A DNA stretch of 12,954 nt, taken from IMG/VR virus record IMGVR_UViG_648276648_000008; one strand, given 5' to 3'. Position numbers and translations under genes: made by a program. Numbering within the stretch: position 1 is the stretch's first letter; every line of letters begins with the position of its first letter. The notes beneath the pieces were generated by a model. It ran no database searches. It was not told the origin of the DNA and saw only the letters and a list, made by a program, of their open reading frames with translations. This DNA comes from a virus (Duplodnaviria; Heunggongvirae; Uroviricota; Caudoviricetes). This document shows positions 1 through 450 of this stretch, piece by piece.

Positions 1-387
1 CCACTTCTTCACGTTGTTGAGGATTTTACCCAGAAACCGGTATGCAGCTTTGCTGTTACGACGGGAGGAGAGATAAAAATCGACAGTGCGGCCCCGGCTG
101 TCGACGGCCCGGTACAGATACGCCCAGCGGCCATTGACCTTCACGTAGGTTTCATCCATGTGCCACGGGCAAAGATCGGAAGGGTTACGCCAGTACCAGC
201 GCAGCCGTTTTTCCATTTCAGGCGCATAACGCTGAACCCAGCGGTAAATCGTGGAGTGATCGACATTCACTCCGCGTTCAGCCAGCATCTCCTGCAGCTC
301 ACGGTAACTGATGCCGTATTTGCAGTACCAGCGTACGGCCCACAGAATGATGTCACGCTGAAAATGCCGGCCTTTGAATGGGTTCAT
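1..387 (-). CDS. tnp26: IS26 transposase Tnp26, N-terminal 129 codons (C-terminus lies outside the window)
   Basis: Minus-strand ATG at 385..387 translates in frame to position 1 as MNPFKGRHFQRDIILWAVRWYCKYGISYRELQEMLAERGVNVDHSTIYRWVQRYAPEMEKRLRWYW...KILNNVKKW, which I recognise as Tnp26. Not in the ORF track because it has no stop in the window. Plus-strand ORFs 160..552 and 378..677 are antisense artefacts. Confidence 0.9.
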   Translation of the reverse strand, partial: MNPFKGRHFQRDIILWAVRWYCKYGISYRELQEMLAERGVNVDHSTIYRWVQRYAPEMEKRLRWYWRNPSDLCPWHMDETYVKVNGRWAYLYRAVDSRGRTVDFYLSSRRNSKAAYRFLGKILNNVKKW

Positions 388-450
388 GTGCAGCTCCATC
401 AGCAAAAGGGGATGATAAGTTTATCACCACCGACTATTTGCAACAGTGCC
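1..450 (-). mobile_element. IS26 (IS6 family) insertion sequence, left ~450 bp; element continues beyond window start
   Basis: Reverse complement of 437..450 is GGCACTGTTGCAAA, the 14-bp IS26 terminal inverted repeat as I recall it, and the adjoining sequence matches the IS26 left end. Minus-strand translation from 387 is the Tnp26 N-terminus. Confidence 0.9.

What the first reader, a model, noticed from the sequence alone, without database searches (positions are those of the whole stretch)
1..450. IS26 abuts the phage module: likely a resistance-linked or rearranged phage-plasmid
Seen: an exact IS26 terminal inverted repeat at 437..450 with transposase reading out of the window. Established: IS26 drives capture and movement of resistance genes and deletes adjacent DNA; P1-like phage-plasmids carrying IS26-bounded resistance regions have been reported. 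Inference: DNA beyond the window start may hold cargo genes, and the IS may have deleted or interrupted the immunity/sim-equivalent region, since 451..720 has no convincing ORF.
Basis: partly seen in the sequence, partly recalled or inferred. Interest (0 to 1): 0.55.

Follow-up and report, generated by a model that had tools for sequence, protein, structure and literature searches.

The report
IS26 inserted in phage-plasmid icd gene
An ordinary copy of the mobile element IS26 has landed in the fourth codon of the cell-division-inhibitor gene icd of a P1/P7-like phage-plasmid, cutting the antirepressor genes off from their control region; whether it brought resistance genes or deleted DNA cannot be told, because the source assembly itself stops inside the IS.

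Summary
Window 1..450 is IS26 nt 1-450 (14-bp IRL at 437..450, first 129 codons of tnp26 on the minus strand), 100% identical to annotated IS26 copies.

- IS26 does not abut a structural module and did not erase the sim-equivalent region. It sits between nt 11 and 12 of icd, the first ORF of the c4-icd-ant1/2 immunity (ImmI) operon.
- 451..720 lacks an ORF because it encodes the C4 antisense RNA (509..594, Rfam RF01695) and its target sites. All of these, the promoter and the C1 operator (776..792) are intact and of P7 type.
- The "sim-equivalent" genes are the normal P7 alleles upf50.5/upf50.0 (1074..2138), also intact.

Predicted effect (inferred): Icd is knocked out, and Ant is uncoupled from its promoter and from C4 control.

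Window base 1 is base 1 of NCBI scaffold GL884141.1 (94,906 bp), so the draft assembly broke inside IS26. A second IS26 copy, cargo, the 8-bp duplication and any adjacent deletion all remain untested. The exact junction occurs in no other collection searched. This is an ordinary, private IS26 insertion of low novelty. One curiosity is that icd disruption recurs in related plasmids.

The parts
1..450 (-). IS26, nt 1-450 of the 820-bp element (IRL end), reverse-complemented; the rest lies beyond the window and scaffold start
   Evidence: 100% identity over 450 bp to annotated IS26 copies; homology to P1-like DNA starts at 451
437..450 (-). 14-bp terminal inverted repeat IRL, GGCACTGTTGCAAA
   Evidence: only exact match in the window; 0.12 matches expected by chance at up to 2 mismatches
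1..387 (-). tnp26, first 129 codons, reading out of the window
   Evidence: translation; PF13610 DDE_Tnp_IS240 at 3e-22
451..458 (.). 8 bp flanking the IS (GCATTAAC = icd nt 4-11 on the minus strand); one copy of the expected 8-bp target duplication, the other copy is unobservable
   Evidence: sequence; alignment to P1, P7 and pDETEC74
451..461 (-). remnant of icd: start codon plus 8 nt (ATGGTTAATGC); the ORF is broken between nt 11 and 12
   Evidence: P1 icd is 48470..48691 and window 451 corresponds to P1 48480; alignments; intact relatives encode MVNANPCARQ...
399..461 (-). chimeric 20-codon ORF icd'::IS26 (MVNAALLQIVGGDKLIIPFC*). Its TGA (401..399) overlaps an ATG (399..397) that is in frame with tnp26, 4 codons upstream of the canonical ATG at 387
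   Evidence: the source record's own gene call for the partial transposase is 1..399
472..479 (-). b2 target site of C4 RNA (GATTGTGA), overlapping the icd Shine-Dalgarno sequence
   Evidence: position by homology with the P1 annotation; exact reverse complement of b' at 545..552
502..508 (-). a2 target site of C4 RNA (TTAGCAG)
   Evidence: P1 annotation; exact reverse complement of a' at 532..538
509..594 (-). C4 antisense RNA gene, complete, P7 specificity type
   Evidence: Rfam RF01695, 69.6 bits (gathering score 45), model positions 1-87 of 87; the a'/b' elements are identical to P7
657..715 (-). a1/b1 upstream target region of C4 (a1 671..677, b1 657..663)
   Evidence: Rfam RF03163, 54.6 bits (gathering score 46.7) at 663..715; sequence
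709..737 (-). sigma-70 promoter of the c4-icd-ant operon (P1c4, former P51b): TTGACC-17-TATAGT
   Evidence: promoter scan, 10 of 12 matches; same position as the P1 annotation of P1c4
776..792 (-). C1 repressor operator Op(c4), also called Op51: TCTGCTCTAATAAATTT
   Evidence: identical to the operator annotated in P7 at 50853..50869
1074..1595 (+). upf50.5, outer-membrane lipoprotein (173 aa); the P7 allele at the position of P1 sim; intact
   Evidence: the exact protein carries the P7 accession AAQ07514.1; P7 annotation
1599..2138 (+). upf50.0, DUF5384 membrane protein (179 aa); the P7 allele at the position of P1 sim; intact
   Evidence: PF17358 at 3e-43; P7 annotation

Best explanation
Window 1..450 is the IRL-proximal 450 bp of a canonical IS26. 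It is inserted into a P1-like (P7-type) phage-plasmid inside the ImmI immunity operon c4-icd-ant1/2, between nt 11 and 12 of icd. tnp26 has the same orientation as the operon.

Shown:
- Everything upstream of the break is intact: the C1 operator, the promoter, the a1/b1 sites, the C4 RNA gene, the a2/b2 sites and the icd ribosome-binding site and ATG.
- The neighbouring P7-type upf50.5/upf50.0 genes and the tail/baseplate operon are also intact.

Inferred:
- Icd is replaced by a 20-residue peptide.
- The antirepressor genes, normally transcribed from the c4 promoter and expressed downstream of icd, are cut off from that promoter and from C4 control. This holds whether they are displaced by at least 820 bp or removed altogether.
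- The prophage therefore keeps C4-based P7-type immunity but most likely no longer makes Icd or regulated Ant. That phenotype is tolerated in the plasmid state.

The insertion would have arisen by IS26 copy-in (cointegrate) transposition. Which outcome applies is unknown, because the source scaffold begins at window base 1 inside IS26. The options are a solitary IS with an 8-bp duplication, an IS26-bounded cargo segment, or an adjacent deletion or inversion.
For: IS26 identity and IR.
Junction position in icd. Window 451 corresponds to P1 48480, and P1 icd starts at 48470.
Intact C4 RNA and a1/b1 region: Rfam hits above gathering score (same).
Self-consistent a'/a2/a1 and b'/b2/b1 complementarity, identical to P7.
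Promoter and operator.
upf50.5/upf50.0 are the P7 alleles.
Closest relatives: L005/L007 differ by 1 SNP over window 451..10725 and have an intact icd followed by ant, kilA and repL at the same place.
The site is normally uninterrupted: 570 of 600 PLSDB plasmids that match the 300 bp spanning it cover at least 80% of it in one place.
The window start is the scaffold start, and a 1000-N gap lies there in the concatenated record.
Roles of C1, C4, Icd and Ant as summarised in PMC8198154.
Against: The functional consequences are inferred, not measured.
- Read-through from the c4 promoter or from within IS26 could still transcribe ant if it lies just beyond the IS.
- Nothing is known about the DNA on the other side.
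- The junction is supported only by GL884141.1 and by OU349840.1. I infer these are one underlying assembly, because OU349840.1 matches the window 100% and has a 1000-N gap exactly at the scaffold start.
- The junction is found nowhere else, so a misjoin inside the draft cannot be formally excluded. A clean break exactly at the IR end, with 450 bp of contiguous IS, argues against that.
Confidence: 0.85

Rival explanations
1. Solitary IS26. A single copy flanked by the 8-bp duplication GCATTAAC, with the rest of icd, ant1/2, kilA and repL immediately on the other side. No cargo and no deletion. This is a resolved cointegrate, in effect a simple insertion.
For: The scaffold is 94,906 bp, within the size range of P1-like records seen here: P1 94,800 bp, P7 101,660 bp, plasmids roughly 89-100 kb. 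The nearest relatives are 1 SNP away over about 10 kb and carry the normal icd-ant-kilA-repL arrangement. Solitary IS26 copies with direct repeats are documented in P1-like backbones (PMC6906374).
Against: The other flank could not be reached. A scaffold that ends 450 bp inside IS26 implies at least one more IS26 copy somewhere in the genome (inference). The exact KilA, Ail/Lom and 76-aa proteins of the nearest relative L005 have short, uncapped contig lists. Those lists hold no contig of the source's concatenated record and show no EGI accession. This is weak, because single private substitutions in L005 would give the same result.
Confidence: 0.45
2. IS26-mediated rearrangement. An adjacent deletion or an inversion has removed or relocated icd', and possibly ant, kilA and repL, so the DNA left of the IS is not contiguous backbone.
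For: IS26 intramolecular transposition produces exactly such deletions and inversions (established; PMC6906374). pYZ_2_2_2 carries two inverted IS26 copies that have inverted the icd5'-c4 segment. There are weak signs that the L005-type kilA..76-aa segment is absent from the source. By rough arithmetic the scaffold has about 4 kb less P1-like DNA than I estimate for the L005 element.
Against: All of this is indirect. The region beyond repL is mosaic among P1-like plasmids, so different alleles do not imply deletion. The size estimate carries an uncertainty of several kb.
Confidence: 0.3
3. IS26-bounded cargo. The window's IS26 is one end of a pseudo-compound transposon or unresolved cointegrate that carries resistance or other genes inserted in icd.
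For: IS26 lies next to most resistance-gene families in P1 subgroup 1, and an Icd-like gene family is listed in the legend of the figure that maps the neighbourhoods of resistance genes (PMC9600943). pTZ20_1P has a 40-kb IS26-bounded multiresistance region (PMC6906374). The assembly break in IS26 fits more than one copy. A relative carries a transposase gene (DDE_Tnp_1_4 domain) next to a beta-lactamase gene in the neighbouring sim-equivalent cassette (L070).
Against: No resistance gene and no second IS26 end is in the window. The 94.9-kb scaffold is already backbone-sized, so any cargo would sit on other contigs. Nothing about this strain's resistance is known to me, and nothing was found in the literature.
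Confidence: 0.2
4. Assembly artefact. The IS26-icd junction is a chimeric join in the draft and does not exist in the cell.
For: The junction is unique to one assembly lineage and absent from PLSDB, INPHARED, 5,426 complete E. coli genomes, GTDB representatives, IMG/VR and JGI metagenomes.
Against: The break is exactly at the last base of the IR. The IS side is 450 bp of perfect IS26. The flank starts in phase with continuous P7-like sequence. Private IS26 insertions are commonplace.
Confidence: 0.03

Closest known systems
IS26 (IS6 family), e.g. the copies annotated in E. coli plasmid pYZ_2_2_2 (Tnp26 WP_001067855.1)
   Same: 100% nucleotide identity over the 450 bp visible; the same 14-bp IR; the same 63-bp distance from the IS end to the tnp26 ATG.
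   Different: Nothing differs in the visible part. Only the insertion site is new.
ImmI operon (c4-icd-ant1/2) of phage P7 (AF503408) and P1 (NC_005856)
   Same: Operator, promoter, a1/b1, C4 RNA, a2/b2 and the icd start are all present. The C4 specificity elements are identical to P7. Relative to P1 they differ with matching changes in all three copies of each element.
   Different: icd is broken after nt 11 by IS26. ant1/2 are not visible.
pYZ_2_2_2 (NZ_JBVNBM010000003.1), a P1-like plasmid with IS26 in icd
   Same: IS26 disrupts icd in a P1-like plasmid.
   Different: The breakpoint differs: about 102 bp further into icd. There are two inverted IS26 copies flanking an inverted icd5'-c4 segment, so it is an independent event.
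P1-like phage-plasmids with IS26-bounded resistance regions (pTZ20_1P; the RCS47, SJ46 and JL22 class)
   Same: The same backbone family. IS26 is the recurrent agent of cargo capture there (PMC6906374; PMC9600943).
   Different: Here no cargo, second IS26 copy or resistance gene is visible. RCS47, SJ46 and JL22 match the window only from 451 onward, so they lack this insertion.

Membership tests
IS26 (IS6 family insertion sequence) | 14-bp terminal inverted repeat GGCACTGTTGCAAA at the element's end | tested here: met
   Exact match at 437..450 (minus strand), the only exact match in the window. Homology to phage-plasmid DNA starts at 451.
IS26 (IS6 family insertion sequence) | Encodes Tnp26, a DDE transposase, starting 63 bp from IRL | tested here: met
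   129 N-terminal codons. PF13610 at 3e-22. 100% nucleotide identity to annotated IS26. The C-terminal 105 codons are outside the window.
IS26 (IS6 family insertion sequence) | 820-bp element with a second IR (IRR) | not testable with these tools
   The window and the source scaffold both start 450 bp inside the IS.
IS26 (IS6 family insertion sequence) | 8-bp target-site duplication | not testable with these tools
   Only one flank (GCATTAAC, 451..458) is visible. The far end of GL884141.1 could not be fetched.
P1/P7 ImmI immunity operon | C4 antisense RNA gene | tested here: met
   Rfam RF01695, 69.6 bits against a gathering score of 45, full length, 509..594.
P1/P7 ImmI immunity operon | a1/b1 and a2/b2 target sites complementary to C4 a'/b' | tested here: met
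   Rfam RF03163 at 663..715. Exact complementarity read from the sequence, identical to P7.
P1/P7 ImmI immunity operon | C1-controlled operator and sigma-70 promoter upstream of c4 | tested here: met
   Operator at 776..792, identical to the annotated P7 Op(c4). Promoter at 709..737.
P1/P7 ImmI immunity operon | Intact icd ORF (73 codons) followed by ant1/ant2 | tested here: not met
   icd ends after nt 11 at the IS26 boundary. ant is not in the window.
IS26-bounded resistance region (pseudo-compound transposon) in a phage-plasmid | Second IS26 copy and resistance gene(s) between the copies | not testable with these tools
   No second IS26 end in the window. All features annotated under the best-matching phage and plasmid records are P1/P7 backbone genes. 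Sequence beyond base 1 does not exist in the source scaffold.
P1-like phage-plasmid (Punavirus / IncY) | Collinear high-identity match to the P1/P7 tail, baseplate and immunity genes | tested here: met
   Window 451..12954 is 96-98% identical to P1, P7 and about 230 plasmids. The replicon and partition genes are outside the window. They are seen only in relatives.

The most novel reading that the evidence does not exclude
The insertion phase may not be neutral. The 20-codon icd'::IS26 ORF starts at the C4-controlled icd ribosome-binding site. It stops at a TGA that overlaps an ATG in frame with tnp26 (TGATG, 401..397). This mimics the native ATGA overlap between icd and ant1. Tnp26 synthesis could therefore be wired to the phage immunity circuit: repressed in lysogens by C1 through Op51 and by C4 RNA, and released on infection or induction. 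IS26 would then transpose when the phage-plasmid enters a new host.

A related, broader reading concerns recurrent knock-outs of icd. Seen here: this IS26, the pYZ_2_2_2 inversion, an IS30-type insertion in CP044439.1, and a codon-21 nonsense allele in several relatives. Together they could reflect selection to disarm ImmI during domestication of P1-like prophages into plasmids.
Probability: 0.07. Interest if true: 0.55.

Novelty: already known. Interest (0 to 1): 0.2.

Why it matters
Little is new in kind. IS26, P1/P7-like phage-plasmids and the C4/Icd/Ant circuit are all well described, and IS26 insertions in such plasmids are common.

The value of the check is corrective.
- The apparent "empty" 270 bp is a textbook antisense-RNA locus, not a deletion scar.
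- The IS hits a specific regulatory gene, not a structural module.

If the antirepressor arm is indeed disconnected, this element would keep P7-type immunity while losing one route to derepression. That matters for whether such plasmids can still move as phages.

The repeated, independent inactivation of icd in relatives is a small lead on prophage-to-plasmid domestication.

Tried and rejected
(1) Searched the exact 33-nt junction in GTDB genome contigs, IMG/VR and JGI metagenomes, and by BLAST in PLSDB and in complete E. coli genomes. No record shares it.

(2) Plasmids H38 and H40, which matched from window base 1, carry IS26 elsewhere, in the tail-fibre/cin region. They do not have it at icd.

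(3) OU349840.1 at first looked like a chromosomal integration next to purH-rrsE. It is only the same draft scaffolds concatenated with 1000-N gaps. Rejected.

(4) Tried to reach the far end of GL884141.1 by exact-protein look-ups:
- KilA of L005
- a 210-aa protein, which turned out to belong to E. coli M605
- BplB
- Ant, twice; the listing order is deterministic, so the repeat was wasted
- consensus KilA
The source contig was never among the 10 places shown.

(5) Tried to infer presence or absence of far-side genes from 'longest contig' and accession lists. Only weak inferences survive.

(6) Looked for a hybrid promoter formed by the outward -35 (TTGCAA) in the IR. No acceptable -10 follows it (sequence).

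(7) A literature search for the strain and scaffold found nothing. The strain name M718 is my guess from neighbouring accession numbers and is unverified.

(8) The 2-mismatch IR-like site at 8540..8553 is at chance level.

Full report
OBSERVATION. Window 437..450 is the exact 14-bp IS26 inverted repeat (GGCACTGTTGCAAA on the minus strand). It is the only exact copy in the window, and even with two mismatches allowed only 0.12 matches are expected by chance. The whole of 1..450 is 100% identical to two IS26 copies annotated in plasmid pYZ_2_2_2. The minus-strand ORF starting at the ATG at 387 encodes the first 129 residues of Tnp26 and leaves the window at base 1. Its Pfam hit is DDE_Tnp_IS240 at 3e-22. 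The IS end is 63 bp from the ATG, so this is the IRL end, and the window holds IS26 nt 1-450. All matches to phages and plasmids begin precisely at 451.

WHAT THE IS SITS IN. From 451 on, the window is a P1-like phage-plasmid. It is 96-98% identical to P1, P7, RCS47, SJ46, JL22 and about 230 PLSDB plasmids. Window 451 corresponds to P1 coordinate 48480. P1 icd is 48470..48691, so the icd start codon is window 461..459 on the minus strand, and IS26 follows icd nt 11. icd is the first ORF of the ImmI operon c4-icd-ant1/2. IS26 has the same orientation as that operon.

THE "EMPTY" STRETCH.
- Rfam places the complete C4 antisense RNA at 509..594 (69.6 bits, gathering score 45).
- Rfam places the a1/b1 target element at 663..715 (54.6 bits, gathering score 46.7) (same result).
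- Read on the minus strand, C4 a' (CTGCTAA, 538..532) is the exact complement of a2 (508..502) and a1 (677..671).
- C4 b' (TCACAATC, 552..545) is the exact complement of b2 (479..472, overlapping the icd Shine-Dalgarno sequence), and its first seven bases are complementary to b1 (663..657).
- These elements are identical to P7. Relative to P1 they differ with matching changes in all copies, and pDETEC74 carries a third b type. This is the known basis of P1/P7 heteroimmunity (established knowledge; Citron & Schuster 1990, as cited in PMC8198154).
- The promoter TTGACC-17-TATAGT (737..709) coincides with P1's annotated P1c4.
- The C1 operator at 792..776 is identical to P7's annotated Op(c4).

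THE SIM-EQUIVALENT REGION. Homology with P1 stops just beyond the operator because this element has the P7 allele at the sim position. Window 1074..1595 is upf50.5, a lipoprotein whose exact sequence carries the P7 accession AAQ07514.1. Window 1599..2138 is upf50.0 (DUF5384, 3e-43). The same cassette lies next to an intact icd in pDETEC74 and in many contigs. So the sim-equivalent region is neither deleted nor interrupted, and its difference from P1 has nothing to do with IS26.

CONSEQUENCES (INFERRED). Icd is reduced to a chimeric 20-residue peptide, MVNAALLQIVGGDKLIIPFC. ant1/2 are normally transcribed from the C1-repressed c4 promoter and further held down by C4 RNA (PMC8198154). In relatives icd and ant1 overlap as ATGA. 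The IS therefore separates ant from its promoter, from C4 control and from icd translation. C4 itself should still be made, so P7-type ImmI immunity in trans should persist. From general knowledge, ant-defective P1 is viable as a prophage, so this is a tolerated and possibly stabilising lesion. The outward -35 in the IR (TTGCAA) finds no usable -10 in the flank.

ONE CURIOSITY. The chimeric ORF's TGA (401..399) overlaps an ATG (399..397) that is in frame with tnp26. The source record starts its own transposase gene call at position 399. C4-controlled translation starting at the icd site could thus be coupled to Tnp26 synthesis. This is speculation.

WHAT LIES BEYOND BASE 1. An exact look-up of the window's Sit protein (accession EGI18580.1) found the source. 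It is NCBI GCA_000176575.2, scaffold GL884141.1, 94,906 bp, and window 1..12954 equals scaffold 1..12954. The window start is therefore the scaffold start: the draft assembly broke 450 bp inside IS26. By inference, that implies at least one more IS26 copy in the genome. A second record, OU349840.1, contains the same DNA, but a 1000-N gap lies immediately before window base 1. It appears to be the same scaffolds concatenated and adds nothing. The exact junction is absent from PLSDB, INPHARED, 5,426 complete E. coli genomes, GTDB representatives, IMG/VR and JGI metagenomes. It is a private insertion.

THE FAR END. Six protein look-ups aimed at the far end of the scaffold failed to display it. 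The nearest relatives are ENA metagenome contigs L005 and L007. They differ by a single SNP over window 451..10725 and have an intact icd followed by ant, kilA, repL and an Ail/Lom gene. Indirect hints suggest the source lacks the L005-type alleles of kilA, ail/lom and a 76-aa gene. I estimate the scaffold to be about 4 kb short of the L005 element. Both hints are weak:
- Capped contig counts hid the source record even for a control protein.
- L005's KilA differs from the consensus by one residue.
- The region beyond repL is mosaic among P1-like plasmids.

My estimates for the other side are: solitary IS26 with duplication about 0.45, adjacent deletion or inversion about 0.3, IS26-bounded cargo about 0.2, artefact about 0.03.

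CONTEXT.
- Of 600 PLSDB plasmids matching the 300 bp that span the insertion point, 570 cover at least 80% of it in one place.
- IS26 is the transposase most often found beside resistance genes in P1 subgroup 1. An Icd-like gene family is listed in the legend of the figure that maps the neighbourhoods of resistance genes (PMC9600943).
- pTZ20_1P shows all three IS26 outcomes on one P1-like backbone: a 40-kb bounded region, a solitary copy with direct repeats, and inversions (PMC6906374).

RECURRENT icd LESIONS. Independent lesions of icd turned up in relatives:
- pYZ_2_2_2 has two inverted IS26 copies around an inverted icd5'-c4 segment.
- CP044439.1 has an IS30-type transposase gene between icd and a shortened ant.
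- Four contigs with the same c4 allele carry a nonsense codon 21 in icd.

VERDICT. This is a real but ordinary IS26 insertion. It is precisely located in icd of a P7-type ImmI operon, with the RNA-based immunity locus and the sim-equivalent genes intact. The resistance or cargo question is untestable from this window or its source scaffold. Novelty: already known. Interest: 0.2.

Noticed in passing
window 509..715; L001 (P1), L072 (P7), L003 (pDETEC74): The C4 specificity elements a and b co-vary in all three copies (C4 itself, a1/b1, a2/b2) between P1, P7 (the window's type) and a third b type in pDETEC74. At least three ImmI specificities therefore circulate in P1-like plasmids.
   Followed up: partly
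L038, L042, L045, L048 (icd region; e.g. L042 around 9783..10004): Relatives with the same c4 allele carry a nonsense mutation at icd codon 21 (AAA to TAA), with ant intact downstream. This is another independent icd knock-out.
   Followed up: partly
L016 (CP044439.1) 7504..9837: An IS30-type transposase gene (HTH_38/rve domains) lies between icd and a shortened ant (260 aa) in a closed P1-like plasmid. This is a further disruption of the ImmI operon.
   Followed up: no
L002 (pYZ_2_2_2) 8332..10575: Two inversely oriented IS26 copies flank an inverted ~490-bp icd5'-c4 segment. This is the signature of intramolecular IS26 transposition, with one breakpoint about 113 nt into icd.
   Followed up: partly
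L070 (DBFSKS010000013.1) 3983..7435: A transposase gene (DDE_Tnp_1_4/DDE_Tnp_1 domains) and a beta-lactamase gene are inserted into the YfjT-like gene of the sim-equivalent cassette, right next to ImmI. This neighbourhood therefore does take up resistance cargo in some relatives.
   Followed up: no
window 12536..12954 and L006 12990..13407; also window 11710..11984 vs 11932..12206: A ~420-bp direct repeat (99.8% identical) spans the window's end in the tail-fibre S gene. In the source, S is called as 675 aa followed by a separate 504-aa ORF. The 91% internal repeat lies where P1's S gene has its annotated b1/b2 repeated elements.
   Followed up: no
window 5383..6733 (inside sit, 4385..7783): The central part of Sit is only about 85% identical to P1, while its flanks are about 98%. 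This 1132-aa variant was found on only 18 contigs, which is what allowed the source to be traced.
   Followed up: partly
L004 (OU349840.1) 4617..5616: A public 5.44-Mb 'chromosome' record appears to be draft scaffolds joined by 1000-N gaps. As a result a plasmid scaffold seems to lie next to purH-rrsE. This is a trap for anyone inferring chromosomal integration of P1-like elements.
   Followed up: yes
window 397..401: There is a TGATG stop/start overlap between the icd'::IS26 chimeric ORF and an ATG in frame with tnp26. It resembles the native icd/ant1 ATGA overlap.
   Followed up: partly
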